A stretch of 64,000 bases of DNA from NCBI RefSeq assembly GCF_009914755.1, contig NC_060937.1. The stretch is one strand, 5' to 3'. Of this stretch, positions 2,976-48,251 are shown in pieces; position 1 is the first letter of the stretch, and the number at the start of each line of letters is the position of its first letter. The DNA is from the human T2T-CHM13v2.0 reference genome, Homo sapiens. The translations under genes and the position numbers were made by a program. The notes under the pieces are model-generated. The model ran no database searches, had not been told where the DNA came from, and was given only the letters and a program-made list of their open reading frames with translations.

Positions 2976-3394
2976 CATGAGAGCTCTTAAATAGAATTTC
3001 CATCTATAAAAAGTAGGTACTGTCAGTATTCCCCTCACATAGGTTTATGAAGAAGTCATTTTAAAAAGAGAACCCCTGTAATTGATCAGGGACCCCATCT
3101 GCCTTCTCTGTGGGCCTAGGATAAATTCTTTTGATTGTTTACGTCTATTTGGTGTAAAAAGATCTGTAATTAAAATATACCATTGCGTTATCCATAATAG
3201 CCAAAAGGTGGAAGCAAGCCAAGAGTCTATCTGCAAATGAATAAACAAAATATGGTATATATACACTATATGCAGTAGAATACTATTCAGGCTTACAGAG
3301 AAAGGCAATTCTGACACATGCTACACCATGGATGAACATGGAAGACATTATGCCACATGAAATAAACCAGTCACCAAAGAACAAGTATTTTATG

Positions 3395-23900: not shown

Positions 23901-26900
23901 AGATCAGTGTAGAGATATGTCAAAAATCCCACTGTAGGCAAAGCCTAGACAAGTTTTAAATAACCTCAGTGATCAGTGCAGAGATGTGTCCCAGTGCCCA
24001 TGTAGTCAGAGCTTAGACAAATGTCACATCTCCGGATTGATCATTGCAGAGATACGTCACAATGCCCCCATAGGCAGAGCCTGGACAAGAGTTACATCAC
24101 CTAGTTGATCAGTGCAGAGATATGTCACAAAGTCCCCTGTAGGCAGAGCCTAGAGAAGAGTTGCATCACCTGGGTGATCAGTGCAGAGATATGTCAGGAT
24201 GTCCCCTGTAGGCAAAGCCTAGGCAAGAGTTACATCACCTTTCTCATCAGTTCAGAGATACGTCAAAACGCCCCTGTAGGTAGAGCCTAGACAAGAGTTA
24301 CATCACCTAGTTGATCAGTGCAGAGATATTTCACAATACCCTCTTTAGGCAGATCCTAGAGAAGAGTTGCATCACCTGGGTGATCAGTGCAGAGATATAT
24401 CAAAATGCCCCCTGTAGGCAGAGCCTAAACAAGAGTTACATCACCTAGGTGATCAGTGCAGAGATTTGTCAAAATTCCCTGTAGGCAGAGCTTATAAAAC
24501 TGTTACATCGCCTAGGTGATCAGTGCAGAGATGTCTCACAAAGCCCCCTGTAGGCAGAGCCTAGACAAGAATTCCCACCCCGGGAGTGATCAGTGCAGAG
24601 ATATATCACAAGGCCCCTGTAGGCAGAGCTTAGATGAGTTACATCACCTGGGTGATCAGTGAACAGATATGTCACAAAGCCCCGTGTAGGAAAAGCCAAG
24701 ACAATAGTTAAATCACTTGGGCGATCAGTGGAGAGATCTCTCACAACTCACAAGTAGGCAGAGCTTATACAACAGTTACATCACCTCGGTGATCAGTGCA
24801 GAGATATGTCATAACGCCCCCATAGGCAGATACAAGACAAGAGTCCGTCACCTGGGTGATCAGAGCAGAAATACGTCACAATGCCCCCGTAGGCAGAGCC
24901 TAGACAAAAGCCCCATCACCTGGATGATGAGGGCAGAGTTACATCACAAAGACCCTTTAGGCAGATCCTAGACAAGAGTTAAATCAGTTGGGTGATCAGT
25001 GCAGAGATATGTCGCAATGCCACTGTAGGCAGAGCCTAGGCAAGAGTTACATGACCCAGGTGATCAGTGCAGAGATACATAACAATGCCCCTGTAGGCAG
25101 AGCCTTGACAAGTGGTACATCACCTGGGTGATCATTGCAGGGATATGTCACAAAGCAGCCTGTAGGCAGATCCTAGACAAGAGTTACATAACCTGGGTGA
25201 TCAGTGCAGGGATATGTCACAATGCCAGTGTAGGCAGAGTCTAGACAAGAGTTACATGACCTAGGTGATCAGTGCAGAGATACATCGCAATGCCTTTGTA
25301 GGCAGAGCCTTGACAGGTGGTACATCACCTGGGTGAGCAGTGCAGAGATATGTCACAAGGTCCCTGTAGGCAGAGCCTAGACAAGAGTTATATAACCTGG
25401 GTGATAAGTGCAGTGATATGTCACAATGCCGTGTAGCCAAAGCCTAGACAAATGTTTCATCACCTGGGAGATCAGTGCAGAGATATGTCACAATGTCCCC
25501 AGTAGGCAGAGCCCAGAAAAGAGTTGGATCACCTCGGGATCAGTGCAGAGATACGTCTCAATCCCCCTGTGGGAACAGCGTAGACAAGAGTTAAATCACC
25601 TTGCTTATCAGGGCAGAGGTATGTCAAAATGCCAGTGTAGGCAGAGCCTACTCAAGTGTTACATCACTTAGGTGATCAGTGCAGAGATATGTCAAAATAC
25701 CCCCTGTAAGCAGAGCCTAGACAAGAGTTACATGACCTAGGTGATCAGTGAAGAGATACACAGCAAAGCCCCTGTAGGCAGAGCCTTGACAAGTGGTATA
25801 TCACCTGGGTGACCATTGCAGGGATATGTCAGAAAGCACCCTGTAGGCAGATCCCAGACAAGGGTTACATCACCTGGTTGATCAGTAAAGAGATATTTCA
25901 AAATGCAACAGCAGGCAGAGCATAAGCAAGAGTCCCATCACCAGGGTGGTCAGTGCGGAAATATGTTGCAATGCCCCCATAGGCAGACCCAACATAAGAG
26001 TTACATCACCTGGGTGATCAGTGTAGAGATATGTCACAATGCCCCCATAGGCAGAGCCTAGACAAAAGTCCCATCACCTGGGTGATCAGTGCAGAGATAT
26101 GTCACGAAGCCCCTGTAGGCAGAGCCGAGACAAAAGTTACATCACCGGGATGATCAATACAGAGTGATGTCACAAAGGACCTTGTAGGCAGAGCCTAGAG
26201 AAGAGTTGCATTACCTGGGTGATCAGTGCAGAGATATGTCACAATACCCCCTTGAGGCAGAGCCTAGACAAGAGTTACATCACCTGGGTGATCAGGGCAG
26301 ATAGGTCACAAGCACCCTGTAGGCAGAGCCCAGACTAGAGTTGCATCATCTTGGTGATCAGTGCAGAGATATGTCTCAATGCCTCCTGTCGGCAAAGCCC
26401 AGAGAAGAGTTACATCATCTCCGTGACCAGTGCAGAGATATGTCAAAATGCACCTGTGGGCAGAGCCCAGACAAAATTTACATCACCTGGGTGATCAGTG
26501 CAGAGACATGTCACAATGTCCATGTAGGCAGAGCCTAGACAAGGGTTACATCACCTGGGTGATCATTGCAGAGTGATGTCACAACGCCCTCTGTAGGCAG
26601 ACACTAGACAAGAGTTACCTCACCTGAGAGATCAGTGCAGAGATATGTCACAATGCCCTCTGTAGGCAAAGACTAGACAAGAGTTACATCACCTGTGTGA
26701 TCAGTGCAGATATATGTCACTATGTCCCTGTGGCCAGAGCCTAGACAAGAGTTACATCACCTGGGTGATCAGTGCAGAGATAAGTCACAATGTCTATCAC
26801 AATGTCTCCAGTAGGCAGAGCCTAGACAAGAGTTACATCACCTGGGTGATCACATCAGAGATATGTCACAATGCCCCCTGTGGGCAGATCCCAGACAAGA

Positions 26901-29900
26901 GTTGCATCACCTCGGTGATCAGTGCAGTGATATATTAAAATGCCCCTGTAGGCAGAGCCTAGACAAGAGTTACATCACCTGGGTGATCAGTGCAGAGATA
27001 TGTCACGATGTCCCCTGTAGGCAGAGCCTAGGCAAGAGTTACATCACCTTTGCCATCAGTTCAGAGATATGTTAAAATGCCCCTTTAGGCAGATCCTAGA
27101 CAAGACTTGCATCACCTGGGTGATCAGTGCAGAGATTTTTCACATTGCCCCCTGTAGGCAGAGGGTAGAAAAAAGTAACATCACCTAGGTGATCAGTGCT
27201 GAGATATTTCACAATACCCACTGTAGGCAGATCCTAGACAAGACTTGGATCACCTGGGTGATCAGTGCAGAGATTTTTCGCATTGCCCCCTGTAGGCAGC
27301 GGGTAGAGAAGTGTTAAATGACCTAGGTGATCAGTGCAGACATTTGTCAAAATTCCCTGTAGGCAGAGCTTATAAAAGTGTTACATCACCTAGGTGATCA
27401 GTGCAGAGATATATGTCACAAAGCTCCCTGTGGGCAGAGCCTAGCCAAGATTTCTCTCTCCAGGAGTGATAAGTGCAGAGATATGTCACAAAGCCCCTGT
27501 AGGCAGAGCTTAAATGAGTTACATCACCTGGGTGGTGAGTGCAAAGTTATGTCACAAAGCCCCCTGTAGGCTAAGCCTAGACAATAGTTACATTACTTGG
27601 GGGATGAGTAAAGACATCTCTCACAATTCCCCTGTAGGCAGAGCTTATACAACAGTTACACCACCTGGGTGATCAGTGCAGAGATATGTCACAATGTCCC
27701 CATAGGCAGATGCAAGACAAGAGTCCGTCACCTGGGTGATCAGTGCAGAAATAAGTCAGAATGCCCCCGTAGGAAGAGCCTAGACAAAAGCCCCATCACC
27801 TGGATGATCAGTACAGGGTTCTGTCACAAAGTCCATTTAGGCAGATCCTAGACAAGAGTTATATCACCTGGGTGATCAGTGCAGAGATATGTCACAATGC
27901 CACTGCAGGCAGAGCCTAGACAAGAGTTACATGACCTAGGTGATCAGTGCAGAGATACATCGCAATGCCCCTTTAGGCAGAGCCTTGACAAATGGTACAT
28001 CACCTGGATGATCATTGCAGGGATATGTCACAAAGCAGCCTGTAGGCAGATCCTAGACAATAGTTATATCACCTGGGTGATCAGTGCAGAGATATGTCAC
28101 AATGCCACTGTAGGCAGAGCCTAGACAAGAGTTATATCACATGGGTGATCAGTGTAGTGATATGTCACAATGCCGCGTGGCCAGAGCCTAGGCAAAGGTT
28201 ACATCACCGGGGAGATCAGTGCAGAGATATGTCACAATGCACTCTGTAGGCAAAACCTAGAGAAGAGTTGCATCACCTGGGTGATCAGTGCAGAGATATG
28301 TTACAATGCACCCTGTAAGCAATGCCTAGACAAGAGTTACATCACCTCGGTGATCACTTCAGAGATATGTCATAACGCCCCTGTAGGCAGAACCTAGAAA
28401 TAAGTTACATCACCTGGGTGATCAGGGCAGAGATATGTCACAATGCGCCCTGTAAGGAGAGCCCAGACAAGAGTTGCATCACCTCGGTGATCAGTGAAGA
28501 GATATGTCTCAATTAGTCCTGTCGGCAAAGCCCAGAGAAGAGTTACATCATCTCGGTGATCAGTGCAGAGATATGTCAAAATGCCTCTGTGGGCAGAGCC
28601 TAGACAAAATTTACATCACCTGGGTGATCAGTGCAGAGACATGTTACAATGTCCATGTAGGTAGAGCCTAGACAATGGTTACATCACCTGGGTGATCATT
28701 GCAGAGTGATGTCACAACGCCCTCTGTAGGCAGAGACTAGACAAGAGTAACCTCACCTGAGAGATCAGTGCAGAGATATGTCACAACGCCCTCTGTAGGC
28801 AAAGACTAGAGAAGAGTTACATTACCTGTGTGATCAGTGCAGATATATGTCACTATGTCCCTGTGGCCAGAGCCTAGACAAGAGTTACATCACCTGGGTG
28901 ATCAGTGCAGAGATAAGTCACAATGTCTCCAGCAGGCAGAGCCTAGACAAGAGTTACATCACCTGGGTGATCAGGTCAGAGATATGTCACAATGCCACCC
29001 GTAGGCAGATCCCAGACAAGAATTACATCACCTGGGTGATCAGTGCAGAGATATCTCACAATACCCCTGTAAGCAGAGCGTAGGCAAGAATTACATCAAC
29101 TGGGAGATCAGTGCAGAGATATGTCATAAATACTACTGTAGGCAAAACCTAGACAAGTGTTACATCACCTCAGTGATCAGTGTAGAGATATGTCCCAATG
29201 CCCCTGTAGGCAGAGCTTAGACAAGAGTTACATCACCTGGGTGATCAGTGCAGAGATAAGTCACAATGCTCCCATAGGCAGAGCCCAGACAAGAGTTACA
29301 TAACCCGGGTGATATGTGCAGAGTGATGTCACAACGCCATCCGTAGGCATAGACTAGAAAAGAGTTACATCACCTGGGTGATCCGTGCAGAGATATGTCA
29401 CAATGTCCCCTGTAGGCAGAACATAGAGAAGAGTTGCATCACCCGGGTGATCAGTGCAGAGCTATGTCAAAAAGTCCCCTGTAGGCAAAGCCTAGGCAAG
29501 AGTTACATCACCTTTCTCATCAGTTCAGAGATATGTCAAAACGCCCCTGTAGGCAGAGCCTAGAAAAGAGTTACATCACCTAGTTGATCGGTGCAGAGAT
29601 ATTTCACAATACCCCCTGTAGGCAGATCCTAGACAAGAGTTGCATCACTTGGGTTATCAGTGCAGAGATAGTTCACAATGCCCCCTGTAGGCAGAGGGTA
29701 GACAAGAGTTACATCACCTAGGTGATCAGTGCAGAGATTTGTCAAAATTCCCTGTAGGCAGAGCTTATAAGTTTTACATCACCTAGGTGATCAGTGCAGA
29801 GATCTCTCACAAAGGCCCCTGTAGGCAGAGCCTAGACAAGAATTCTCTCCACGGGGTGATCAGTGCAGAGATATGTCACAATGCCACTGTTCGCAGAGCC

Positions 29901-32900
29901 TAGATAAGAGTTACATGACTTAGGTGATCAGTGCAGATACATCGCAATGTCCCTGTAGGCAGAGCCTTGACAAGTGGTACATCATCTGGGTGATCATTGC
30001 AGGGATATGTCACAAAGCACCCTGTAGGCAGATCCTAGACAAGAGTTACATCACCTGGGTGAGCAGTGCAGAGGTATGTCACAAGACTCCTGTAGGCAGA
30101 GCCTAGACAAGAGTTATATCACCTGGGTGATAAGTGCAGTGATATGTCACAATGCCGTGTAGCCAGAGCCCAGACAAATGTTACATCACCAGGGAGATCA
30201 GTGCAGAGATATGTCACAATGTCCCCAGTAGGCAGAGCCCAGAAAAGAGTTGGATCACCTCGGGATCAGTGCAGAGATACGTCTCAATCCCCCTGTGGGA
30301 ACAGCGTAGACAAGGGTTAAATCACCTTGCTTATCAGGGCAGAGGTATGTCAAAATGCCACTGTAGGCAGAGCCTACTCAAGTGTTACATCACTTAGGTG
30401 ACCAGTGCAGAGATATGCCAAAATACCCCCTGTAAGCAGAGCCTAGACAGGAGTTATATCACCTGGGTGATCAGTGCAGAGATATGTGACAAGGCCCCTT
30501 TAAGCAGAGCCTAGACAATGGTTACATCACCTGAGTGATCAGTGCAGAGATCTGTCACGGTGCCCCTTTAGGCAGAGCTTACACCAGAGTTACATCACCT
30601 GGGTGAGCAGTGCAGAGATATGTCACAATGCCCCCATAGGCACATCCAAGACAAGAGTCCGTCACCTAGATGATCAGTGCAGAAATATGTGACAATGACC
30701 GCTGTAGGCAGAGCCTAGAGAAGAGTCCCATCACCTGGGTGATCAGTGCTGAGTTATGCCACAATGCCCTCTGTAGGCAGAGCCTAGACAAGATTTACAT
30801 CACCTGGTGGTTCAGTAAAGAGATATTTCACAATGCCCCTGCAGGCAGAGCATAAGCAAGAGTTACATCACCTAGATGATCAGTGGAGAGATATGTCACA
30901 AGACCCCCTATAGGCAGAGCCTGGACAACAGTTACATCACCTCGGTGATCAATGCAGTGATATGTCACTATGCGCCAGTAGGCAGAGCCTAGTCAAGCAT
31001 TACATCACCTGGGTCATCAGTGCAGAGATATGTCACAAAGCCCCCATACACAGAGCCTAGACAAGAGTCCCATCACCAGGGTGATCAGTGCAGAAATATG
31101 TCACAATGCCCCCTAGGCAGATCCAACACAAGAGTTAAATCACCTCGATTATCAGTGTAGAGGTATGTCAAAATGCCCCCGTAGACAGAGCCTAGACAAA
31201 AGTCCCATCACATGGCTGATCAGTGCAGAGATATGTCACAAAGCCCCTGTAGGTAGAGCCTAGACAAGAGTTACATCATTTGGTTTATCAGTTCAGAGAT
31301 GTGTCACAATGCCTATGTAGGCAGAGCCTAGACAAGTGTTTCATCAGCTGGATGAGCAGTGCAGAGATATGTGACAAGGCCCCTTTAAGCAGAGCCTAGA
31401 CAATAGTTACATCATCTGAATGATCAATGCTGTGATATGTCACTATGCCCCAGTAGGCAGAGCCTAGTCAACGGTTTCATCACGTAGGTGATCAGTGCAG
31501 AGATATGTCACAAAGCCCCCATACACAGAGCCTGGAAAAGAGTCCCATCACCTGGGTGATTAGTGCAGAAATATGTCGCAATGCCCCCATAGGCAGATCC
31601 AACACAAGAGTTATATCACCTGGGTGGTCAGTGTAGAGATATGTCACAATGCCCCCGTAGGCAGAGCCTAGACAAAAGTTCCATCAGCTGGGTGATCAGT
31701 GCAGAGATATGTCACAAAACCCCTGTAGGCAGAGGCTAGACAAGAGTTACATCACTTGGTTGATAAGTTCAGAGATGTGTCACAATGCCCATGTAGGCAG
31801 AGCCTTGACAAGTGTTCCATCAGCTGGGTGATCGGTGCAGAGATATGTCGCAATGCCCCCTATAGGCAGAGCCTAGACAAGAGTTACATCACCTGGGTAA
31901 TGAATGCAGTGATACATCAAAATGCCCCTGTAGGCAGAGCCTAGACAAGAATTAAATCATCTAAGTGATCAGTGCAGTGATACCTCACAAAAATCCTTTC
32001 AGACAGAGCCTAAACAAGAGTTACATCACCTGGGTGATCAGTGCAGATATTTGACACAATGACCCCATAGACAGAGCCTAAACAAGACTTCCATCACCTG
32101 GGTGATCAGTGCAGAGGTATGTCACAAATACCCCTGTAGGCAGAGCCTAGAGAAGAGTTGCATCGCCTGGGTGATCAGTGCAGAGGTATGTCACAATACC
32201 CCCGTAGGCGGAGGCTAGACAAGAGTTACATCACCTGGGTGATCAGTGAAATGAAACATCTAAATGCCTCTGTAGGCAGAGCCTAGATGAGAGTTACATC
32301 ATCTAGGTGATCAGTGCAGTGATATGTCACAAAAATCCCTGTAGACAGAGCCTAGACAAGACTTCCATCACCTGGGTTATCAGTGCAGAAATGTCACAAA
32401 TCCCCCTCTAGGCAGAGTATAGAGAAAAGTCCCATCACCTGAGTGATCAGTGCAGAGATATGTCATGAAGACCCCTGTAGGCAGAGTGTAGGGAAGAGTC
32501 CCATCACCTGTGTTATCAGTGTAGTGATATATCACAATGCCGCTGTAGGCAGAGAGTAGAAAAGAGTTGCATTACCTGGGTGATCAGTATGGAGATATGT
32601 AACAATGCCCCCTCAGGGCAAAACCTAGAAAAGAGTTATATCGCCTAGTTGATCAGTGCAGAGGTACGTCACAAAACTCCCTGAAAGTACACCCTAAAGA
32701 AGAGTTACATCACCTGGGTGATCAGTGCAGTGATATGTCACAATTCCCCTGTAGGCAGAGCCTAGAAATGGGTTACATCACCTGGGTGATCACTATAGAG
32801 ATGTGACAAATCCCCCTTTAGGCAAAGCCTAGAAAGGAGTTGCATCATCTGGGGAATCAGTGCAGAGATATCTCACAATGCACCCATAGGGAGAGCTTAG

Positions 32901-35900
32901 ACAGGGTTCACATCACCTCAGTGATCAGTGCAGAGGTATGTCACAATGCCCCCTTAGGCAGAGCCTAGACATAAGTTACATCACCTTGATGATCAATACA
33001 GAGTGATGACACGAAGCACCTTGTAGGCAGAGCCTAGAGAAGAGTTACGTCACCTGCGTGATCAGTGCAGAGATATGTCACAATGCCACCTGTAATAAGA
33101 GCCTAGAGAAGAGTTGCACCACCGGGGTGATCAGTGCAGAGATATATTACAATGCCCCCTGTAGGCAAAGCCTAGACAAGAGTTACATAACCTCGGTGAT
33201 CACTTCAGAGATATGGCAAAACGCCCCTGTAGGCAGAGCCTAGAAAAAGTTACATCACCTACGTGATCAGTGCAGAGATATGTCACAATACCCCCTTTAA
33301 GTAGAGCCTAGACAAGAGTTACATCACCTGAGTGATCAGGGCAGAGATATGTCACAATGCCCCCTGTAGGCAGAGCCCACACAAGAGTTGCATCACCTCC
33401 GTGTTCAGTGCAGAGATATGTCTCAATGTCTCCTGTCGGCAAAGCCCAGAAAAGAATTACATCATCTCGGTCATCAGTGCAGAGATATGTCAAAATGCCC
33501 CTGAGGGCAGAGCCTAGAAAAAATTTACATCACCTGGGTGATCAGTGCAGAGACATGTCACAATGTCCATGTAGGCAGAGCCTAGACAAGAGTTACATCA
33601 CCTGGGTGATCATTGCAGAGTGATGTCACAATGCCCTCTGTAGGCAGAGACTAGAGAAGTTACCTCACCTGAGAGATCAGTGCAGAGATATGTCACAACG
33701 CCCTCTGTAGGCAAAGACTAGTCAACAGTTACATTACCTGTGTGATCAGTGCAGATATATGTCACTATGTCCCTGTGGCCAGAGCCTAGACAAGAGTTAC
33801 ATCACCTGGGTGATCAGTGCAGAGATAAGTCACAATGTCTCCAGCAGGCAGAGCCTAGACAAGAGTTACATCACCTCGGTGATCAGTGCAGAGATATGTC
33901 ACAATGCCCCCTGTAGGCAGATCCCAGACAAGAGTTGCATCACCTCGGTGATCAGTGCAGTGATATGTCTCAATGCCCTCTGTCAGCGAAGCCTGTACAA
34001 GTTACATCATCTCGGTGATCAGTGCAGTGATATGTTAAAATGCCCCTGTAGGCAGAGCCTAACAAGAGTTACATCACCTGGGTGATCAGTGCAGAGATAT
34101 CTCACAATACCCCCTGTAAGCTGAGCCTAGACAAGAGTTACATCAACTGGGTGATCAGTGCAGAGATATGTCATAAATCTCACTGTAGGCAAAGCCTTGA
34201 CAAGTGTTACATCACCTCAGTGATCAGTGCAGAGATATGTCCCAATGCCCCTGTAGGCAGAGCTTAGACAAGAGTCACATCTCCTAGTTGATCAGTGCAG
34301 AGATACGTCACAGTGCTCCCATAGGCAGAGCCTAGACAAGACTTACATAACCCTGGTGATCCGTGTAGAATGATGTCACAACGCCCTCTGTAGGCAGAGA
34401 CTGGAAAAGTTACTTCACCTGGGTGATCAGTGCAGAGATATGTCACAATGCCGTTTGTAGGCAGAGCATAGGGAAGAGATGCATCACCTGGGTGATCAGT
34501 GCAGAGATATGTCACAATGTCCCCTGTAGGCAAAGCCTAGGCAAGAGTTACATCACTTTTGTCATCAGTTCAGAGATATGTCAAAACGCCCCTGTAGGCA
34601 GAGCCTAGACAAGAGTTACATCACCTAGTTGATCAGTGCAGAGATATTTCACAATACCCCCTGTAGGCAGAGGGTAGACAAGAGTTACATCACCCAGGTG
34701 ATCAGTGCAGAGATATTTTACAATACCTCCTGTCGGCAGATCCTAGACAAGAGTTGCATCACCTGGGTGATCAGGGCAGACATACTTCACAATGCCCCCT
34801 GTAGGCAGAGGGTAGATCAGAGTTACATCACCTAGGTGATCAGTGCAGAGATATGTCAAAAAGCCCCTTGTAGGCAGAGCCTAGACAAGAATTCTCTCCC
34901 CGGGGTGATCAGTGCAGAGATATGTCACAAGGCCCCTGTAGGCAGAGCTTAGATGAGTTACATCACCTGGGTGATCAGTGCAAAGATATGTCACAAAACC
35001 CCCTGTAGACAAAGCCTAGACAATTGTTACATCACTTGGGTGATCCGTGGAGAGATCTCTCACAATTCCCCTGTAGGCAGAGCTTATATAACAGTTACAT
35101 CACCTGGGTGATCAGTGCAGAGATATTTCACAGTGCCCCCAGAGGCAGATGCAAGACAAGAGTCTGTCACCTGGATGATCAGTGCAGAAATACGTCACAA
35201 TGCCCTCATAGGCAGAGCCTGGACAAAAGCCCCATCACATGGATGATCATTGCAAAGTTATGTGACAAAGCAACCTTTAGTCAGATCCTAGACAAGGGTT
35301 ACATCACCTGGGTGATCAGTGCAGAGATATGTTACAATGCACCCTGTAAGCAATGCCTAGATAAGAGTTACATCACCTCGGTGATCACTTCAGAGATATG
35401 TCATAACGCCCCTGTAGGCAGAACCTAGAAATGAGTTACATCACCTGGGTGATCAGGGCAGAGATATCACAATGCGCCCTGTAAGGAGAGCCCAGACTAG
35501 AGTTGCATCACCTCGGTGATCAGTGTAGAGATATGTCTCAATTAGTCCTGTCGGCAAAGCCCAGAGAAGAGTTACATCATCTCGGTGATCAGTGCAGAGA
35601 TATGTCAAAATGCCTCTGTGAGCAGAGCCTAGACAAAATTTACATCACCTGGGTGATCAGTGCAGAGACATGTTACAATGTCCATGTAGGTAGAGCCTAG
35701 ACAATGGTTACATCACCTGGGTGATCATTGCAGAGTGATGTCACAACGCCCTCTGTAGGCAGAGACTAGAGAAGAGTTACATTACCTGTGTGATCAGTGC
35801 AGATATATGTCACTATGTCCCTGTGGCCAGAGCCTAAACAAGAGTTACATCACCTGGGTGATCAGTTCAGAGATATGTCGCATTGCCTCCATAGGCAGAT

Positions 35901-36401
35901 CCAAGACAAGAGTCCGTCACCTGGGTGATCAGTGCAGAAATATGTGACAATGCCCCCAATAGGCAGAGCCTAGAGAAGAGTCCCATCACCTGGGTGATCA
36001 GTGCAGAGTTATACCACAAAGCCCCCTGTAGGCAGAGCCTAGACAAGAGTTACATCACCTGGTTGATCAGTGTAGAGATATGTCACAATGCCACTGTAGG
36101 CAGAGCCTAGACAAAAGTCCCATCACCTGGGTGATCAGTGCAGAGATATGTCACAAAGCTCCTGTAGGCAGAGCCTAGACAAGGGTTACATCACTTGGTT
36201 GATCAGTTCAGAGATGTGTCACAATGCCCATGTAGGCAGAGCCTAGGCAAGAGCTACAACATCTGAGTGATCAATGCAGTGATATGTCACTATGCCCCAA
36301 TAGGCAGAGCATAGACAAGTGTTACATCACTTGGGTGATCAGTGCAGAGATAGGTCACAATGCCCCCATACACAGAGACTATAAAATAGTCTCATCACCT
36401 G
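20992..36401 (+). repeat. Beta satellite (68-bp Sau3A/BSR) array, about 225 diverged monomers
   Basis: Tandem ~68-bp unit TGCCCCTGTAGGCAGAGCCTAGACAAGAGTTACATCACCTGGGTGATCAGTGCAGAGATATGTCACAA with about one GATC per unit, in a single orientation. Confidence 0.97.
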
Positions 36402-39400
36402 CACTACAGCCTGTGTGACAGAGGGAGACCCTGTCGAAAGAAAGTAGTGGAATGGAAGGGATTGAAATGGAATGGAACGGATTGGAGTAGAGTGGAGTGG
36501 AATTGAGTGGAGTGGAGTGGAGTGCAGTGGAATGGAATGGTGAAATGAAATGTGAGCTGAGATTGTGCCACTGCACACCAGCCTGGGTGACAGAGTGAGA
36601 TACAGTCAAAAGAAAGTACTGGAATGGAATGGAGTGGAATGGAATGTAATGGAGTTGAGAGCAGTGGAGTGGAGTAGAAAGGAGTGGAATGGAATGGGAT
36701 GGAATGGAAAGGACAGGAGTGGACTGGAATGGAGTGGAGTGGAGAGGAATGGATTGGAGTGGAGTGGAGTGGAATTTAATGGAGTAGAATACAATGGAAT
36801 GGTGAAATGAAATGTGAGCTGAGATTGTGCCACTGCACTCCAGGCTTGGTGACAGAGTGAGATACTCTCTAAAGAAAGGAATGGAATTGAATGCAGTGGA
36901 ATGGAATGGAATGGATTGGAGTGGAGTGGAGTGGAGTGAAGTGGATTGGAGTACAATCAAGAGGAATGGAAAAAGGTGGAATGGAATGGAATGAAGAGGA
37001 GTGGAGAGGGGTGGAGTGGAGTGCAGTGGGATGGAGCGGAATGGAACGGGATGGAGTGGAATGGAGTGGAGTGGAGTGCATTGGAGTGGAGAGGACTGGA
37101 ATGGAGTGGAATGGAATCGGATGTAATGGAATGTAGTGCAGTGGAGGGGAGTGGAGTGGAACAGAGTGGAATGGAACAGAATTGAATGGAATGGAATAGA
37201 ATGGAAAGGAATGGAATGGAATGGAATGCAATGGAATAGAATGCAACGCAATGGAAAGATGACATGTAATGTGAGCTGAGATTGTGCCACTGCACTCCAG
37301 CCAGGGTGACACAGTGATATCCTGTCAAAGGAAAGGAATGGAATGCAATGGAGTGGAGTGGAGTGGAATGGAATGGGATGGAGTGGAATGGAGTGGAGTG
37401 GAGTGGAGTGAAATACAATGGAATGGAATGGGATGGAATGGAATGCAATGGAATGGTGAAAAGAAATGTCAGCTGAGATTGTGCCACTGCACTCCAGCCT
37501 TTGTGACAGAGTGAGATCCTGTGGAAAGAAAGGAATGGAATGGAATGGAATGGAGTGCAATGGAATGCAGTGGAGTGGAGCAGAGTGGAGTGGAATTGAG
37601 TGGAGTGGAATTGCGTGGAGTGGAATTGAGTGGAGTGGAATTGAGTGGAGTGGAATTGAGTGGAGTGGAGTAGAGTGGAATGGAATGGAGTGGAGTGGAA
37701 TGGAGTGGCGTGGAGTGGAGTGGAGTAGAGTGGAATGGAATGGAGTGGAGTGGAATGGAGTGGAGTGGACTGGAGTGGAATGGAGAGGAGTGGAGTGGAA
37801 GGGAATGGAATGGAATGCAGTGGAATGGAATGGAATGAAATGGTGAAAAGAAATGTGTGACACAGGGAGATCCTGTCAAAAGAAAGGAGTGGAATGGAAG
37901 GGATTGGAATGGAATGGAATGGATTGGAGTAGAGTGGAGTGGAATTGAGTGGAGTGGAGTGCAGTGGAATGGAATGGAGTGGAATGGTGAAATGATATGT
38001 GAGCTGAGATTGTGCCACTGCACACCAGCCTGAGTGACAGAGTGGGATCCTGTCAAAAGAAAGGAATGTAATGGAATGGAGTGGAATGGAATGGATTGGA
38101 GTGGAGTGGAGGGAAGTGGAGTGGAAAGGAGTGGAATGCAATGGGATGGAATGGGAAGGACTGGAATGGACTGGAGTGGAGTGGAGTGGAATGTACTGGA
38201 GTGGAGTGGAGTGGAATGTACTGGAGTGGAGTGGAGTGGAATAGAATGGAATAGAATGGAATTAAATGGGGAAATATAATGTGAGCTGAGATTGTGTCAC
38301 TACGCTCCAGGCTGGGTGACAGAGTGAGATACTCTTGAAAGAAAGGAATGGAATGGAATGCAGTGTAATGGAATGGAGTGGACTGCAGAGGAGTGGAGTG
38401 GAGTGGAGTGGAATGGAGACGAATGGAATGAGATGGAATGGAATGCAATGAAGTGGAGTGGAGTGCAGCCGAATGGAGAGGAATGGAATGGGATGGAGTG
38501 GAATGGAGTGGAGTGGAGTGCAGTGGAGTGGAGAGGAGTGGAATAGAGTGGAATGGAATAGGATGTAATGGAATGTAGAGGAGTGGAGTGGAGTCGGAGT
38601 CGGAGTGTGATGGAATGTAATGGAAAGGAATGGAATGCAATTGAATGCAAAGAAATAGAAAGTTGACATGTAATGTGAGCTGAGATAGTGCCACTGCAGT
38701 CCAGCCTGGGTGACACGGAGATATCCTGTGGAAAGGAAGCTATGGAATGTAATGGAGTGAAATGGTATGGAATGGAATGGAATGGAGTTGATTGGAGTTG
38801 AGTGGAGTGGAACAGAGTCGAATGGAATGGGATGGAGTGGCATGGAATGGAGTGGAGTGGAGTGGAGTGAAATAGAGAGGAATGGAATGGGATGGAATGG
38901 AATGCAATGCAATGGAATGGTGAAAAGAGATGTGAGCTGAGATTGTGCCACTGCACTCCAGCCTCTGTGACAGAGTGAGATCCTTTGGAAAGAAAGGAAC
39001 GGAATGGTATGGAATGGAGTGGAGTAGAGTGGAGTGGAATGGAATTGAATGGAGTGGAGTGGAATGGAATGGAATGGAACGCAATGGAAAGCAATGGAAT
39101 GCAATGGAATAGAATGCAGTGAAAAGGAAAGTTGACATGTAATGTGAGCAGAGATTGTGCCACTGCACTCCAGCCTGGTGACACAGTGATATCCTGTCAA
39201 AAGAAAGGAATGGAATGCAATGGAATGGAGTGGAGTGGAGTGGAGTGGAATGCAATGGAATGGAGTGGAGTGGAATGGAATGGAGTGGAATGGAATGGTA
39301 TGGAATGGAGTGGAGTGGAATGGAATGGAGAGGAATGGAGTGGAGTGGAGTGGAATGCAATCGAATGGAATGGAATGGAAGGGAATGGAATGGAAGGGAA

Positions 39401-42400
39401 TGGAATGGAAGGGAATGGAATGAAATGGAATGGAGTGGAGTGGAGAGGAGTGGAATGGAATGGAGTGGAATGGAATGGAATAGAGTGGAATGGAGTGGAA
39501 AAGAGTAGAATGGAATGTGGTGGAATGAAATGGAGTGGAGTGGACTGGAGTAGAGTGGAATGGAATGCAGTGGAATGGAATGGAGTGTAATGGAATGGAA
39601 TGGAATGGAACGGAATGGAATGGAATGAAATGGTGAAAAGAAATGTGTGCTGAGATTGTGTCACTGCACTAAACCTGTGTGACAGAGGGAGATCCTGTCG
39701 AAAGAAAGGAATGAAATGGAAGGGATTGGAATGGAATGGATTGGAGTGGAGTGGAGTCGAATTGAGTGGAGTGGAGTGCTGTGGAATAGAATGGAATGGA
39801 ATGGTGAAGTGAAATGTGAGATGAGACTGTACCACTGCACACCAGCCTGGGTGACAGAGTGAGATCCTGTCAAAAGAAAGGAATGGAATGGAGTGGAGTG
39901 GAGTGGAAAGTAGTGGAATGGAATGGGATGGAATGGAAAGGAGTGGAGTGGACTGGAATGGAGTGGAGTGGAATGGAGTGGAATGGATTGGAGTGGAGTG
40001 GAGTGGGATGGAATGGAATGGAATGGTGAAATGAAATGTGAGCTGAGATTGTGCCACTGCGCTCCAGGCTGGGTGACAGAGTGAGATACTTTCAAAAGAA
40101 AGGAATAGAATGGAATGCAGTGGAATGGAATGGCATGGAATGGAGTGGAGTGGGGTGAAGTGGAGTGGACTGGAATGGAGAGGAATGGAATAGGATGGAA
40201 TGGAATGGAATGAAGTGGAGATGAGTGGGGTGGAGTGGATTGCAGTGGAATGGAGCAGAATGGGATGGAGTGGAATGGAGTGGAGTGCAGTGGAGAGGAG
40301 AGGAGTGGAATGGAGTGGAATGGAATCGGATGTAAAGGAATTTAGTGGAGTGGAGTGGAGTGGAACGGAGTGGTATGGAATGGAATTGAATGGAATGGAA
40401 TGGTGAAATGAAATGTGATCTAAGATTGTGCCACTGAACTCCAGTCTGGTTGATAGAGTGAGATCCAGTAGAAATAAAGGAATGGAATGGAATGGTGTGG
40501 AGTGGAGTGGAGTGGAATGGAGTAGAGTGGAATGGAGTGGAGTGGAATGGAATGGCATGGAGTGGAGTGGAATGGAATGGAGTGGAGTGGAATGGAGTGG
40601 AGTGGAATGGAATGGAAAGGAGTGGAGTGGAATGGAATGGCATGGAATGGAGTGGAGTGGAGAGAAGTAGAGTGGAATGGAATGGAGTGGAGTGCAGTGG
40701 AGTGGAATGGAGTGGAGTCGAATGGAATGGGATGGAGTGGAATGGAATGGAGTGGAGTGGAGTGAAATAGAGTGGAATAGAATGGGATGGAATGGAATGC
40801 AATGGAATGGTGAAAAGAAATGTGAGCTGAGATTGTGATACTGCACTCCAGCCTTTGTGACAGAGTGAGATCCTGTGGAAAGAAAGGAATGGAATGGAAT
40901 GGAGTGGAATGGAATGCAATGGAGGGGAGGGGAGTGGAATGGAGTGGAGTGGAGGGGAGTGGAATTGAGTTGAGTGGAGTGGAATAGAGTGGAATGGAAT
41001 GGAGTGGAGTGGACTGGCATGGAGTGGAATGGAGTGGAGTGGATTGGAGTGGAATGGAGAGGAGTGGAGTAGAGTGGAATGGAATGGAGTGGAGTGGAAT
41101 GGAGTGGCATGGAGTGGAATGGAGTGGAGTGGAGTGGAATGGAGAGGAGTGGAGTGGAGTGGAAGGGAATGGAATGGAATAGAGTGGAATGGAATGGAAT
41201 GAAATGGTGAAAAGAAATGTGTGCTGAGATTGTGCCACTGTGCTACAGCCTGTGTGACACAGGGAGATCCTTTTGAAGGAAAGGAGTGGAATGTAAGGGA
41301 TTGGAATGGAATGGAATGGAATGGAATGGATTGGAGTGGAGTGGAGTGGAATGGAATTGAGTGGAGTGGAGTGCAGTGGAATGGAATGGAATGGAGTGGA
41401 ATGGTGAAATGAAATGTGAGCTGAGATTGTGCCACTGCACACCAGCCTGGGTGACAGAGTGAGACCCTGTCAAAACAAAGGAATGGAATGGAGTGGAATG
41501 GAATGGAGTGGAGTGGAAAGGAGTGGAATGGAAAGGAGTGGAATGGAAAGGAGTGGAATGGAATGGACTGGAATGGAGTGGAGTGGAATGGAATGGAATG
41601 GAATAGAATGGAATGGAATGGTGAAATGAAATGTGTGCTGAGATTGTGCCACTACACTCCAGGCTGGGTGACAGAGTGAGATACTCTCGAAAGAAAGGAA
41701 TGGAATGGAATGGAATGCAGTGTAATGTAATGTAATGGAATAGAATGGAATGGAGTGAACTGGAGAGGAGTGGAGTGAAGAGGAGTGGAGTGGAATGGAG
41801 AGGAATGGAATCGAATGAAGTGGAGTGGAGTGGAGTGCAGTGGAATGGAGCGGAATGGAATGGGATGGAGTGGAATGGAGTGGAGTACAGTGGAGTGGAG
41901 AGGAGTGGAATGGAGTGGAATGGAATCGGATGTAATGGAATGTAGAGGAATGGAGTGGAGTGGAGTGGAGCCGAACGGAGTGGAATGGAATGGAAAGGAA
42001 TGGAATGGAATGGAATGCAATGGAAAGGAATGGAATGCAATTGAATGTAATGGAATAGAATGCAATGCAATGGAAAGTTGACATGTAATATGAGCTGAGA
42101 TAGTGCCACTGCACTCCAGCCTGGGTGACACCTTGATATACTGTGGAAAGGAAGCTATGGAATGCAATGGAGTGAAATGGTATGGAATGGAATGGAATGG
42201 AGTTGAGTGGAGTGGAGTTTAGTGGAATGGAGTCGACTGGAGCGGAATGGAGTGGAATGGAGTGGAGTGGAGTGAAATAGAGAGGAATGGAATGGGATGG
42301 AATGGAATGCAATGGAATGGTGAAAAGAAATGTGAGCTGAGATTGTGCCACTGCACTCCAGCCTATGTGACAGAGTGAGATCCTTTGGAAAGAAAGGAAC

Positions 42401-44260
42401 GGAATGGCATGGAATGGAAGGGAGTGGAGAGGAGTGGAGTGGAATGGAATGGAGTGGGATGGAATGGAGTGGGATGGAATGCAATGGAAATGAATGGAAT
42501 GGAATGGAACAGAATGGAACGGAATGGAATGGAATGGTGAAAAGAAATGTGTGCTGAGATTGTGCCACTGCGCTGCACCCTGTGTGAGAGGGAGATCCTG
42601 TTGAAAGAAAGGAGTGCAATGGAAGGGATTGGAATTGAATGGAATGGAATAGGTTGGAGTGGAGTGGACTGGAATTCAGTGGATTGGAGTGGAGTACGTG
42701 GAATGGAATGGAATGGAATGGTGAAATGAAAAGTGGGCTGAGATTGTGTCAATGCACTCCAGCCTGGGTGACAGAGTGAGATCCTGTCAAAAGAAAGGAA
42801 TGGAATCTAATGGAGTGGAATGGAATGGAGTGGAGTAGAGTGCATTGGAGAGGAAAGGAGTGGAATGGAATGGAAAGGAGTGGAGTGGAATGGAATGGAG
42901 TGGAGTGGAATGGATTGCAGTGGAGTGGAGTGGAGTGGAGCGGAATGGAACTGAGTGGATTGGAATTGAATGGAATGGTGAAATGAAATGTCAGCTGAGA
43001 TTGTGCCACTGCTCTCCAGGCTGGGTGATGGAGTGAGATACTCTCAAAAGAAAGGAAAGGAAAGGAATGCAGTGGAATGGAATGGAGTGGACTGGAGTGG
43101 AGTGGAGGGAAGTGGAGTGGAGTGGAATGGAGAGGAATGGAATGGAATGAAGTGGAGTGGAGTGGGGTGGAGCGGAGTCCAGTGGAATGGAGTGGAATGG
43201 AATGGGATGGAGTGGAATGGAGTGGTGGGGAGAGCAGTGGAGTGGAGAGGAGTGGAATGTAATCGGATGTTATAGAATGTAGTGGAGTGGAGTGGAACGG
43301 AAAGGAATGGAATACAATGGAATGCAATGGAATTCAATAGAATGCAATGGAATAGAATGCAATGAAATGGAAAGTTGACATGTAATGTGAGCAGAGATTG
43401 TGCCACTGCACTCCAGCCTGGGTGACACAGTGATATCCTGTCGAAACAAAGGAATGGAATGCAATGGAGTGAAGTGGAATGGAATGAAAGGGAGTGGAGT
43501 GGAGTGGAGTGGAGCAGAGTGGAGTGGAATGCAATGGAATGGAATGGCGTGGAGTGGAATGGAATGGAGTGGAATGGAATGGCATGGAATGGAGTGGAGT
43601 GGAATGGAATGGAGAGGAATGGAGTAGAGTGGAGTGGAATGCAATGGAATGGAACGTAAAGGAAGGGAATGGAATGGAGTGGAGTGGAGTGGAATGTGGT
43701 GGAGAGGAGTGGAGGGGAGTAGAATGGAATGGAGTGGAATGAAATGGAATGGAGTGGAAAAGAGTGGAATGCAATGCAGTGGAATGAAACGGAGTGGAGT
43801 GGACTGGAGTAAAGTGGAATGGAATGCAGTGGAATGGAATGGAGTGGAGTGTAGTGGAGTGGAATGGAATGGAATGGTGAAATGAAATGTGAGCTGAGAT
43901 TGAGCCACTGTACTGCAGGCAGGGTGACAGAGTGAGATACGTTTGAAAGAAAGGAATAGCGTGGAATGCAGTGGAATCGAATGGAATGGAATGGAGTGGA
44001 CTAGAGTGGAGTGCAGTGAGGTGAAGTAGAGTGGACTGGAATGGAGAGGAATGGAATGGGATGGGATGGAATGGAATGAAGTGGAGATGAGTGGGGTGGA
44101 GTGGATTGCAGTGGAATGGAGCAGAATGGAATGGGATGGAGTGGAATGGAGTGCAGTGGAGTGCAGTGGAGACGAGAGGAGTGGAATGGAGTGGAATGGA
44201 ATTGGATATAATGGAATTTAATGTAGTGGAGTGGAGTAAAGTGGAACGGAGTGTTATGGA
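36399..44260 (+). repeat. Composite satellite: (GGAAT/GGAGT)n tracts interleaved with 26 Alu 3'-end cassettes
   Basis: The cassette GTGAGCTGAGATTGTGCCACTGCACTCCAGCCTGGGTGACAGAGTGAGATCCTGTC-AAAAGAAAG recurs every ~140-500 bp between GGAAT/GGAGT pentamer tracts. Confidence 0.95.
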
Positions 44261-47200
44261 ATGGAATGGAATGGAATAGAATGGATTCGAATGGAATGGA
44301 ATGGAATGGAATGGACTCGAATGGAATGGAATCAAATGAAATGGAATCTAATGAAATGTAATCGAATGGAATGGACTCGAATGGAATGGAATGGAATCAA
44401 AAGGAATGGAAATGGAATGGACTCAAATGGAATGGACTGGAATGGAAGGCAATCGAATGGAATGGAATCGAATGGAATGGAATCAAATGTAATGGACTGG
44501 AATGGAATGGATTCAAATGGAATGGACAGTAATGGAATGGTCCCGAAAGGAATGGAATGGAATGGAATGGAACGGACTCGAATGAAATGGCCTGGAATGG
44601 AATGGACTTGAATGGAATGGACTCGAGTGAAATGGAATCAAATGGAATGGAATAGAATTTAATGGAATGGAATGGAATGGATTGGAATGGAAAGGAATTG
44701 AATCGAATCAAATGTTAAGGAATCAAATGGAAGGAAACGGAATGGAATGGAATGGATTCGAAGGGAATGGAATGGAATGGAATACAATGGAATGGAATGA
44801 CATGGAATGGAATGGAATGGATTCGAAAGGAATGGAATGGAATAGACTCAAAAGGAATGGACTCAAAAGGAATGGACTGGAATGGCATGGAATCAAATGG
44901 AATGGAATGGAATTGAATGCAATGGAATGGAATGGAATGGACTCGAATGGAATGGAATGGAAAGGAATGGAATGGACTGGAATGAAATGGAATTGAATGG
45001 AATGGAATGGACAGGAATGGAATGGACTCAAATGGAATGGAATCGAAAGGAATGGAATTGAATGGAATGGAATAGAATGGAATGGAATAGACTCGAAGGT
45101 AATGGACTGGAATGGAATGGACTTGAATGGAATGGACTCGAATGGAATGGAAACGAATGGAATGGAATCTAATTGAATGGAATCGAATGGAATGCAAACG
45201 AATGGAATGGAATCAAATGAAAGGGAATCAATTGGAATGGACTCGAATGGAATGGACTCGAATGTAATGGACTGGACTGGAATGGTATGGAATGGAATTC
45301 AAAGCAATGGAATGAAATGGAATGGATCCGAATGGAATGGACTGGAATGGACTGGACTGGAATGGACTGGAATGGAAAGGAATGGAATGGAAGGGAATGC
45401 ATTGGACTCGAATGTAATGGAATTGCAAAGAATGGAATGGAATGGAATGGAATGGAATAGAATCAAACGGAATGGAATAGAATGGAATGGATAGGAATTG
45501 AATTGAATGGAATGGCATGGAATGGAATCAAATGGAATGGAATGGAATGAATTCGAACGGAATGGAATGGAATGGACTTGAAAGGAATGGACTGGAATGG
45601 AATGGAATGGATTCAAATTTAATGGAATGGAATAGAATGGAATGGAATGGATTCGAATTTAATGGAATGGAATGGAATGGATTGGAATGGAATTGATTTG
45701 AATGGAATGGAATCGAATGGACTGGAATGGAATGGAATGGAATCGAGTGGAATGGCATAAAATGCACTAGAATCTAATGGAATGGAATGGATTAAAATGG
45801 AATGGAATGGACTCGAATGGAATGGACTAGAATGGAATGGACTCGAAAGGAAGAGGAATCGAACGGAATGGAATAGAACAGAATGGAATCGAATCGGATG
45901 GCATGCAATCAGATGGCATGCAATTGGATGGAACGGATTAGAATGGAATGGAATGCAATCGAAATTGAATGGAATGGACTGGAATGGAAAGGACTCGCAT
46001 GGAATGGACTCGCATGGAATGGAATGGAATGGAAAGGAAAGGAAAGGAAAGCAATGGAATAGAATGGTACGGACTTGAATGGAACGGACTCGAATGGAAC
46101 AGACTTGAATGGAATGGACTCGAATGGGGTGGAATCAAATGGGATGGAATCAAATGGAACGGACTGCAATGCAATGGACTTGAAAGGAATCGCCTCGAAT
46201 GGAATGGAATGGTATGGAATGGAATAGAGTGGATTGTACTCGAATGTAATCGACCGGAATGGAATGGAATTCAATGAAATGGACTTGAATGGAATGCAAT
46301 CGAATGGAATGGAATGGTATGGAATGGAATGGAATGTAATTCAATGTACTCGAATGGAATGTAATCGAATGGTATGCATTCGAATGGAATGTAATCCAAT
46401 GGAATGGAATTGGATGGAATGGACTGTAGTGGAATGGACTGGAATGGAATGGACTCAAAGGGAATGGATTGGAATGATATGGACTTGAATGGAATGGACT
46501 CGAAAGGAATGGAATCGAATGAAATGGAATTGAATGGAATGGAATTGAATGGAAGGGATTTGAACCGAAAGGAATGGAATTGAATGGAATGGAATGGAAT
46601 GCCATGGAATGGAATCGAATGGAATGGAATCGAATGGAATGGAATCGAATGGAATGGAATCGAATGGAATGGAATCGAATGGAGTGTAATAGTACAGTCT
46701 CGAATGGAATCTAATCGAATGGAATGGAAAGGAATGGAATGGAACCGAATGGAATGGACTGGAATGGAATGGAATCGAATGGAATGGACTCAAAGGGAAT
46801 GAAATGGAATGGAATGGACACGAATGGAATGGATTCGAATATAATGGATGCAAATGGAATGGATTCAATTGGATGGACTCAAATGGAATGCAATCGAATG
46901 GAATGGAATCAAACGGGATGGAATCAAATGGAATAGAATCGAATGGAATGGAATCGAATGGAATGGACTGGAATGGAATGGACTTGATTGGAATGGACTC
47001 GAATGGAATGGACTCGAAAGGAAATGAATCGAATGGAATGGAATAGAATGGAATGGAATCTATTCTAATGGAATGGAATTGAATGGAATACAATCGAATG
47101 GAATACAATGGAATGGAATGGAATGGAATAGACTGGAACGGACTTGAATGGAATGGAATCTTCTTGAATGGAATGGATTGGAAGCGACTGGAATGGACTT

Positions 47201-47750
47201 GAATGGAATGGAATCTTCTGGAATGGAATGAAATGGATTTGATTGGAGTGGACTGGAATGGAGTGGACTAGAATGGAATGAACCCAAAAAGAAAGGAATC
47301 GAATGGAATGGAATAGAATTGAATGCAATGGAATGGAATGGAATACAATCAAATGGAATGGAATCGAGTGGAATGGAATCGAGTGGAATGGAATCGAGTG
47401 GAATGGAATGGAATGGAATCGAATACAGTAGACTGGAATGGAATGGACTCGAATGGATTGGACTGGAATGGAATGAACTCGAATGGAATGCAATCGAATG
47501 GAATGCAATCGAATGGAATGCAATCGAATGGAATGCAATCGAATGGAATGCAATCGAATGGAATGCAATCGAATGGAATTAAATCGAATGGAATGGATTG
47601 GAATGGAATGGAATCGAATATAATGGAATGGAACATAATGGAATCAAATGTAATGGACTCGAATGCAATTCAGTGGAATCGAATGGCCTCGAATGGAATG
47701 AACTTGAACGGAATGGAGTCTAATGTAATGGAATCGAATGCAATGGAATC
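44261..47750 (+). repeat. Diverged classical human satellite (HSat3/HSat2-type (GGAAT)n), Alu-free
   Basis: GGAAT pentamers with frequent GGACTCGAAT and GGAATCGAAT variants; GGAGT is nearly absent and there are no Alu cassettes. Confidence 0.93.
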
Positions 47751-47781
47751 ATATATATATATATGTACACACACACACACC
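47751..47781. repeat. (AT)n(AC)n microsatellite at the satellite/L1 junction
   Basis: atatatatatatatgtacacacacacacac. Confidence 0.9.
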
Positions 47782-48251
47782 GAGTACATGCCCAGTAGTG
47801 GGATTACTGGCTCAAATGGTATTTCCGTTTCTAGATCCTTGAGGAATCACCAGACTGCCTTCCGCAATGGTTGAACTAATTCACACTCCCACCAACAGTG
47901 TAAAAGCATTCCTATTTCTCCACATCTGCTCCAGCATCTGTTGTTTCCTGAGCTTTTAACAATTGCCATTCTAAATGGCATGAGATTGTATCTCATTGTG
48001 GTTTTGATTTGCATTTCTCTAATGATCAGTGATGATGAGCTTTTTTTCAGATGTTTGCTGGCTGCATAAATGTATTCTTTTGAGAAGTGTCTGTTCATAT
48101 CCTTTGCCCACTTTTTGATGAGATTGTTTGTTCTTTTCTTGTAAATTTGTTAAAGTTCCTTGTAGATTCTAGATATTAGGCCTTTGTCAGATGGACAGAT
48201 TGCAAACATTTCCTCCCATTCTGTAGGTTGCCTGTTCACTCTGATCATAGT
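47782..48251 (-). mobile_element. L1PA (older than the left-hand L1), ORF2 3' segment; 3'UTR missing
   Basis: ORF 47847-48098 reads MNRHFSKE...[11 protein letters not shown]...[19 protein letters not shown]. Confidence 0.93.

What the first reader, a model, noticed from the sequence alone, without database searches (positions are those of the whole stretch)
36399..43960. Five-type higher-order order (A-B-C-D-E) hidden in the Alu cassettes
Seen: cassettes fall into diagnostic types. A: 'ctgtgtga..gggaga' followed by 'ggaagggattgg' (36399, 37855, 39645, 41219, 42549). B: mostly 'gcacaccagcc' (36552, 37999, 39816, 41416, 42734). C: 'caggct...gagatac' (36814, 38281, 40038, 41633, 42990, 43889). 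D: leader 'tgacatgtaat' plus 'gatat' (37271, 38675, 39144, 42091, 43387). E: 'cagcct.tgtgac...ggaaagaaag' (37468, 38932, 40822, 42332). The order A-B-C-D-E repeats about five times with A-to-A spacing of ~1.3-1.8 kb. Irregularities are an extra D at 39144, an atypical cassette at 40415 and a D-to-C jump at 43889. Inference: this is an alpha-satellite-like HOR whose period is blurred by slippage in the pentamer spacers, so fixed-period detectors would miss it.
Basis: seen in the sequence. Interest (0 to 1): 0.7.

Follow-up and report, generated by a model that had tools for sequence, protein, structure and literature searches.

The report
Five-cassette order in Alu-satellite 3
A 7.8-kb block of a known human satellite holds 26 short Alu fragments that recur in a real five-step order, likely a worn-out fossil of old tandem duplications that was later copied whole to other chromosomes; no function is shown.

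Summary
Window 36399-44250 is a GGAAT/GGAGT satellite 3 (HSat3) block with 26 Alu 3'-end cassettes. The five types are real (90.7% identity within types, 83.0% between; 25 of 25 typed cassettes have a same-type nearest neighbour) and the order is non-random (20 of 25 transitions cyclic; label-free tests p≤0.0003). Spacer lengths differ between paralogues mostly by multiples of 5 (95 of 116), supporting slippage. The 'alpha-satellite-like HOR' label fits only loosely: five units, three complete, about 90% identical, monomers 138-502 bp. A second level (E-A-B-C-D-E block, about 3.35-3.4 kb) scores higher than the five-step period. The array is not homogenised: in nine paralogous arrays 175 of 186 cassettes are closer to a window cassette than to any neighbour. 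Its beta-satellite junction occurs 17 times in the genome, and a single A-B-C-D-E run sits inside more diverse family arrays. Best reading: a divergent nested tandem repeat made by block duplications, then spread by segmental duplication. Alu-fragment HSat3 and kilobase HSat3 units are published; this cassette typing was not found in 10 searches. Low to modest interest.

The parts
20994..36401 (+). 68-bp satellite array (beta satellite by unit length) bordering the block on the left
   Evidence: TRF period 68, 225.6 copies; 68-bp unit of beta satellite per bioRxiv 2021.07.12.452052
36379..36411 (+). Beta-satellite/HSat3-Alu junction; the break cuts cassette A1 in the middle
   Evidence: junction pattern found 17 times in G000
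36399..37836 (+). Unit 1: A1 (5'-truncated, ends 36439), B1 (36544-36611), C1 (36806-36873), D1 (37268-37334), E1 (37460-37527), with pentamer spacers
37837..39631 (+). Unit 2: A2 (33-column internal deletion, ends 37877), B2 (37991-38058), C2 (38272-38340), D2 (38672-38734), E2 (38924-38991), plus extra Dx (39141-39202)
39632..41205 (+). Unit 3: A3 (39637-39703), B3 (39811-39875), C3 (40030-40097), X (40407-40474, a sixth type in the D slot whose spacer is closest to the D1 spacer), E3 (40814-40881)
41206..42535 (+). Unit 4: A4 (41211-41277), B4 (41408-41475), C4 (41625-41692), D4 (42087-42149), E4 (42324-42391); sister of unit 2
   Evidence: sub-clades D2+D4 100, E2+E4 98, C2+C4 89; unit identity 93.5%
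42536..43875 (+). Unit 5: A5 (42541-42606), B5 (42725-42792), C5 (42982-43049), D5 (43384-43446; 98% identical to Dx); no E
43876..44250 (+). C6 cassette (43881-43948) and last GGAGT-rich spacer; sister of C3; A-B likely lost before it
   Evidence: C3+C6 support 87; spacer sharing 51%; older paralogues L005, L008, L013 end D-A-B-C
37455..42391 (+). Second-level duplication: block E1..E2 (37455-38991) against E3..E4 (40809-42391), offset about 3.35-3.4 kb
   Evidence: lag-11 identity 0.889; k-mer intervals 3354, 3400, 3415
44250..47749 (+). Cassette-free HSat3 of another make-up (GGAAT- and TCGA-rich, almost no GGAGT) bordering the block on the right
   Evidence: GGAGT 42.0 vs 1.1 per kb, TCGA 1.3 vs 21.1 per kb; no cassette hit

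Best explanation
The block is a small, diverged stretch of Alu-fragment satellite 3 whose monomers (one Alu-tail cassette plus a pentamer spacer) recur in a five-step order, likely made by tandem block duplications, then left unhomogenised and copied whole to other loci. Steps: (1) one Alu 3' fragment was captured in GGAAT satellite and amplified at DNA level (shown: shared non-Alu leader and the same 3' Alu segment in all cassettes; inferred: single origin). (2) Monomers diverged into types, and an A-B-C-D-E run existed within a longer, more diverse array (shown in other loci; that it is ancestral is inferred). (3) That run was duplicated in register about five times, with a later six-cassette (3.35-3.4 kb) and a D-A-B-C duplication and some deletions (pattern shown; unequal exchange inferred). 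(4) A break in cassette A1 joined it to beta satellite (junction shown). (5) The whole block spread by segmental duplication (shown) while spacers gained or lost pentamers (shown; slippage inferred). No function of the order is shown; neutral turnover is the likely cause.
For: Types and order. Spacers also follow type: rare 10-mer sharing 33% within vs 17% between, 0 of 10000 shuffles. In 5 of 5 unit pairs the in-order alignment beats all 44 deranged orders. Nested sub-clades and lag 11. The same 26-cassette order occurs in L001-L003 (G000:C22, C15, C14) at 99.2-100% cassette identity, in L004 (C24) lacking D2, and in seven older copies at 94.0-95.8%. 175 of 186 full-length cassettes in nine paralogous arrays are closer to a window cassette than to any in their own array (3 ties, 8 closer to their own). 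The junction occurs 17 times. Single A-B-C-D-E runs with similar spacings lie in L006 and L017, and weaker ones in L012 and L014; L006 and L017 are colinear over 12 of 25 steps. Other family arrays have other best lags (12 in L012 and L014, 10 in L019). An exact 29-base cassette pattern has 379 matches in G000, and the 100 listed lie in small clusters; the D leader has 55.
Against: B, C and E separate weakly: unsupervised clustering lumps them and B5 is outside B; in the diverged arrays B and sometimes C or E fall below my typing threshold. Only 15 of 26 spacers have a same-type nearest spacer. Unit identities are inflated by low complexity (deranged controls reach 85-87%). I read 19 loci (190 kb) of a family with at least 802 candidates and saw only 100 of 379 pattern places, so a larger homogeneous A-B-C-D-E array is not excluded. 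The order of events has no outgroup.
Confidence: 0.8

Rival explanations
1. It is the decayed remnant of a once large, homogeneous five-monomer higher-order array, like the divergent HORs of alpha satellite; the single runs in other loci would be leftovers of it.
For: About 10% divergence between units, small size and presence on several chromosomes match the description of divergent alpha HORs (PMC9549924). The array is cut at its left end by the beta junction, so its former length is unknown.
Against: Single runs sit in a longer colinear order shared by L006 and L017. Sister arrays show other periods. Unit relations are a patchwork of lags 5, 11 and 14 rather than one period.
Confidence: 0.12
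2. The order is kept by selection, for example as a chromatin boundary between beta satellite and plain HSat3 or as spaced protein-binding sites.
For: The order and rough spacer lengths persist in copies about 5-6% diverged. HSat3 in general carries TEAD and NFAT motifs (PMC11526998).
Against: Copies lose whole cassettes freely: L004 lacks D2, L005 and L009 lack six cassettes, the window lacks A-B. Cassettes diverge 5-6% between copies. No RefSeq element or gene lies here (hub annotation).
Confidence: 0.04
3. The types are an artefact of hand-picking motifs among randomly diverged cassettes.
For: Differences are small (about 8 points); B, C and E merge in unsupervised clustering.
Against: Label-free order tests give 2 to 5 of 20000 shuffles; tree support 86-100 for C, D, E; spacers, not used for typing except the first 20 bases, follow the types.
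Confidence: 0.02

Closest known systems
HSat3 arrays intermingled with Alu fragments (T2T-Y paper, bioRxiv 10.1101/2022.12.01.518724; passages read)
   Same: [quoted passage not shown]
   Different: That paper reports no clustering by subgroup either; here the fragments fall into positional types shared between loci. I could not see its tree or supplements, so I cannot confirm that it sampled these cassettes.
Nested tandem repeats (NTRs) of HSat2/3 (bioRxiv 10.1101/2021.07.12.452052; passages read)
   Same: Kilobase units built on the pentamer; the paper says periodicity can vary along an array and that HSat3 often has old TE fragments in its units (citing Bandyopadhyay 2001, not held).
   Different: Here the Alu cassettes mark discrete, countable monomers, which gives a partly HOR-like order; only five units.
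Satellite III group 2 clones pTRS-47, pE-2, pR-1, pR-2, pR-4, filed as HSat3A4 (PMC6862356 passages; PMC4022460 Tables 1 and S1)
   Same: GGAAT/GGAGT satellite on the acrocentric short arms, with published units of 1366, 1529, 1556, 1026 and 584 bp, overlapping the 1.3-1.8 kb unit here. The HSat3A4 marker 24-mer occurs exactly 3 times among the listed matches in family locus L018.
   Different: The marker has no exact match in the window (7 matches at 2 mismatches, 3 of them in the cassette-free block).
Alpha-satellite HORs, homogeneous and divergent (PMC9549924; passages read)
   Same: Multi-monomer unit in fixed order; about 10% divergence and sharing between chromosomes as in divergent HORs.
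   Different: Not alpha satellite; monomers vary 3.6-fold in length; far from 1-2% homogeneity; five copies; no sign of a centromere role.
HSat1B/DYZ2 composite satellite
   Same: A satellite unit that includes an Alu fragment.
   Different: AT-rich 2.5-kb unit, over 98% identical copies, one Alu part per unit; unrelated spacer.

Membership tests
HSat3 (satellite III) | Tandem array derived from the GGAAT/CATTC pentamer | tested here: met
   TRF period 5 over 36620-47749; GGAAT 53.8 per kb in the block
Alu-fragment HSat3 of acrocentrics and Y | Alu fragments interspersed in the pentamer array | tested here: met
   Cassette B4 positions 18 to about 82 align to the 3' end of 9 of 9 Alu-like stretches of the window tested
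Alu-fragment HSat3 of acrocentrics and Y | Related copies on acrocentrics and Y without local homogenisation | tested here: met
   (contig numbers read as chromosome numbers, C24 as Y: inference)
Alu-fragment HSat3 of acrocentrics and Y | Alu subfamily AluY | not testable with these tools
   No Dfam or Repbase consensus on hand; about 55 bases with only 5 CpG in 1320 bases of 24 cores
HSat3A4 / group 2 satellite III | GGAGT-rich make-up on acrocentric short arms | tested here: met
   GGAGT 42.0 per kb; the percentage cut-off between the groups was not seen
HSat3A4 / group 2 satellite III | Subfamily-specific 24-mers or clone identity | tested here: inconclusive
   Only the single published top 24-mer was tested: exact in L018, 2 mismatches in the window; full k-mer sets and clones not available
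Homogeneous HOR (alpha-satellite sense) | Fixed order of distinct monomers | tested here: met
   20 of 25 transitions; 3 of 5 units complete
Homogeneous HOR (alpha-satellite sense) | Monomers of similar length | tested here: not met
   138-502 bp; criterion
Homogeneous HOR (alpha-satellite sense) | About 1-2% divergence between units | tested here: not met
   87-93.5% identity over 10 unit pairs; criterion
Homogeneous HOR (alpha-satellite sense) | Chromosome-specific, homogenised array | tested here: not met
   175 of 186 cassettes closer to another locus than to their own array; 17 junction copies
Nested tandem repeat (NTR) | Kilobase tandem unit built on the simple repeat, seen in k-mer intervals | tested here: met
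   Smeared 1.2-1.8 kb and 3.2-3.6 kb intervals at k=18 in my own NTRprism-like count; NTRprism itself was not run

The most novel reading that the evidence does not exclude
The Alu cassettes are an unrecognised monomer alphabet for this HSat3 subfamily: typing them genome-wide would resolve the 'structureless' HSat3-Alu arrays into ordered divergent higher-order units, overturn the published statement of no subgroup structure, and give a dated record of exchanges between acrocentric, Y and pericentromeric duplicons.
Probability: 0.35. Interest if true: 0.4.

Novelty: new member of a known kind. Interest (0 to 1): 0.24.

Why it matters
Mainly as a marker system. Countable typed monomers let one align and order HSat3 arrays that resist ordinary alignment, trace duplications among the acrocentric short arms, Y and other pericentromeres, and measure pentamer slippage between paralogues. 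It shows higher-order order arising outside alpha satellite by simple block duplication. No functional consequence is shown.

Tried and rejected
Average-linkage clustering did not recover five groups; nearest neighbours and an ML tree did better. TRF at period up to 500 and up to 2000 with three parameter sets (one set printed no period of 100 or more) found no kilobase period. The HSat3B4 marker 24-mer: 0 matches in the 16 loci then held, up to 2 mismatches. The HSat3A3 marker: only 2-3-mismatch matches in 8 of 19 loci, uninformative. L018 and L017 showed no significant lag (p 0.27, 0.76), L006 borderline (0.067), and L011 was not colinear with the window (1 of 24 steps). Independent Alu insertions rejected: all cassettes share the same boundaries and a non-Alu leader. 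Active retrotransposition rejected: only the 3' tail is present; that the Pol III promoter lies in the left arm is from my own knowledge. WaluSat was considered from recall and dropped: no such tandem monomer here; not tested against its sequence. Not held and therefore unread: Jarmuz 2007, Altemose 2022 review, Choo 1990 and 1992; Bandyopadhyay 2001 seen only as a citation. bioRxiv supplements (NTRprism Fig. S10, TE Fig. S7, the AluY tree) could not be seen and may already show this period. A 200-kb map of G000:C13 5.0-5.17 Mb could not be obtained, so the full extent of the family there is unmapped. Protein, ORF and RNA tools were not used: nothing pointed to a gene.
Full report
Setting. The hub annotation places the window on the short arm of chr13 (T2T-CHM13v2.0) with no gene or element over the finding. 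A 68-bp satellite runs from 20994 to 36401 and a pentamer array from about 36440 to 47749. The pentamer array has two parts: 36440-44250 is rich in GGAGT (42.0 per kb) and poor in TCGA (1.3), and 44250-47749 is the reverse (1.1 and 21.1). The cassettes occur only in the first part.

The cassettes. There are 26. Each has a short non-Alu leader, about 55 bases matching the 3' end of an Alu, a degenerate A tail, and then pentamers. Cassette B4 aligned to the 3' end of 9 of 9 Alu-like stretches tested in the window, in most with a short gap just before the A tail. The common boundaries and leader suggest a single captured fragment amplified as DNA (inference). CpG is nearly gone: 5 in 1320 bases of 24 cores.

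Types and order. All 25 typed cassettes have a same-type nearest neighbour; X has none above 87%. The ML tree supports D (100), E (93), C (86), B1-B4 (77) and A (72); B5 stays outside B. Average linkage lumps B, C and E, so these types are weaker. Three label-free order tests are reached by 4, 5 and 2 of 20000 shuffles. Spacers carry the signal too: 33% vs 17% sharing of rare 10-mers, 0 of 10000 shuffles, although only 15 of 26 have a same-type nearest spacer. In 5 of 5 unit pairs the true order aligns better than all 44 derangements.

The best lag is 11 (0.889), above lag 5 (0.874). D2+D4 (100), E2+E4 (98), C2+C4 (89) and C3+C6 (87) are sisters, and Dx and D5 are 98% identical. Long k-mers recur at 3354, 3400 and 3415 bases. 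So a six-cassette block E-A-B-C-D-E was duplicated about 3.35-3.4 kb away, and a D-A-B-C block further away (inference from these patterns).

Copies elsewhere. A search with cassette E1 gave 802 candidates, 40 scored. I read 19 loci of 10 kb. L001-L003 (G000:C22, C15, C14) hold the same 26-cassette order at 99.2-100% cassette identity, and L004 (C24) the same without D2. Seven more (on C1, C3, C4, C13, C22) hold it, whole or in part, at 94.0-95.8%. The beta-satellite junction, which cuts A1 in half, occurs 17 times with up to one mismatch. Older copies L005, L008 and L013 end A-B-C-D-A-B-C, so the window's D-to-C jump is likely a loss of A-B. L005 and L009 lack six cassettes. Of 177 spacer intervals paired by best-match labels, 116 differ in length from the window and 95 of these by a multiple of 5; related loci share events, so these are not independent counts. 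In nine paralogous arrays, 175 of 186 full-length cassettes are closer to a window cassette than to any in their own array, 3 tie and 8 are closer to their own. The array has therefore not been homogenised since the copies split.

The wider family. The other eight loci hold more diverse cassettes. A single A-B-C-D-E run with similar spacings lies in L006 and L017, and a weaker one in L012 and L014; B, and sometimes C or E, fall below my typing threshold there. L006 and L017 are colinear over 12 of 25 steps. Best lags differ: 12 in L012 and L014, 10 in L019, none significant in L017 and L018. An exact 29-base cassette pattern has 379 matches in the genome (100 listed, in small clusters) and the D leader 55, which argues against a megabase array of this unit but does not exclude a diverged one. 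Multi-cassette duplication looks generic for this family, and the five-step order is one local outcome.

Mechanism. Shown: types, order, nested blocks, 5-base length steps, whole-block copies, lack of homogenisation. Inferred: unequal exchange or similar in-register duplication and deletion, slippage in spacers, single Alu origin, and that the single run is ancestral. Confidence 0.8. Rivals: remnant of a once homogeneous HOR (0.12), selection (0.04), artefact (0.02).

What is known. The T2T-Y preprint describes HSat3 blocks intermingled with Alu fragments on Y and acrocentrics, with no local homogenisation and no clustering by subgroup or chromosome (passages). The T2T centromere preprint says HSat3 often has old TE fragments in its units and names kilobase HSat units NTRs, as distinct from HORs with monomers of similar length (passages). 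Group 2 satellite III clones, filed as HSat3A4, have published units of 584-1556 bp on the acrocentrics. Homogeneous alpha HORs diverge 1-2% and divergent HORs over 10% (passages). The block works like a divergent HOR or NTR, is a member of Alu-fragment HSat3, probably belongs to HSat3A4 (inconclusive), and fails three of four tests for a homogeneous HOR. Ten full-text searches gave no description of this cassette typing in the listings and passages I read. The primary clone papers, the 2022 review and preprint supplements were not available and may hold it.

Verdict. Real, well supported, and explained by ordinary satellite turnover plus segmental duplication. New member of a known kind; interest 0.24.

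Noticed in passing
window 37836-37877: Cassette A2 has a 33-column internal deletion between two copies of the same 6-base word, as expected of a microhomology deletion; short A2-like hits recur in younger and older paralogues.
   Followed up: partly
window 36379-36411 and 16 other places in G000: The same beta-satellite/HSat3-Alu junction marks 17 copies of a duplicon (C3, C4, C13 x4, C14 x3, C15 x3, C21, C22 x3, C24); L010 (C1) has a different junction into an A cassette.
   Followed up: partly
L011 (G000:C24:11214000-11223999): A more diverged array rich in D and E types, with D-E alternation; exact D leaders are densest in C24 11.15-11.26 Mb (12 of 55).
   Followed up: no
L012 and L014: A 12-cassette tandem duplication (lag 12; 17 of 28 colinear steps in L012).
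   Followed up: partly
L017 (G000:C9:76680000-76689999): Two adjacent cassettes are 100% identical, a recent local duplication in an otherwise diverged array; L007 likewise has a doubled B1.
   Followed up: no
window about 47750-48300: The HSat3 array ends in a short AT/AC run followed by sequence that looks like an L1 fragment (recalled likeness, not tested).
   Followed up: no
window 20994-36367: The 68-bp array also scores as a 137-bp dimer, with a higher TRF score (17169 vs 15798).
   Followed up: no
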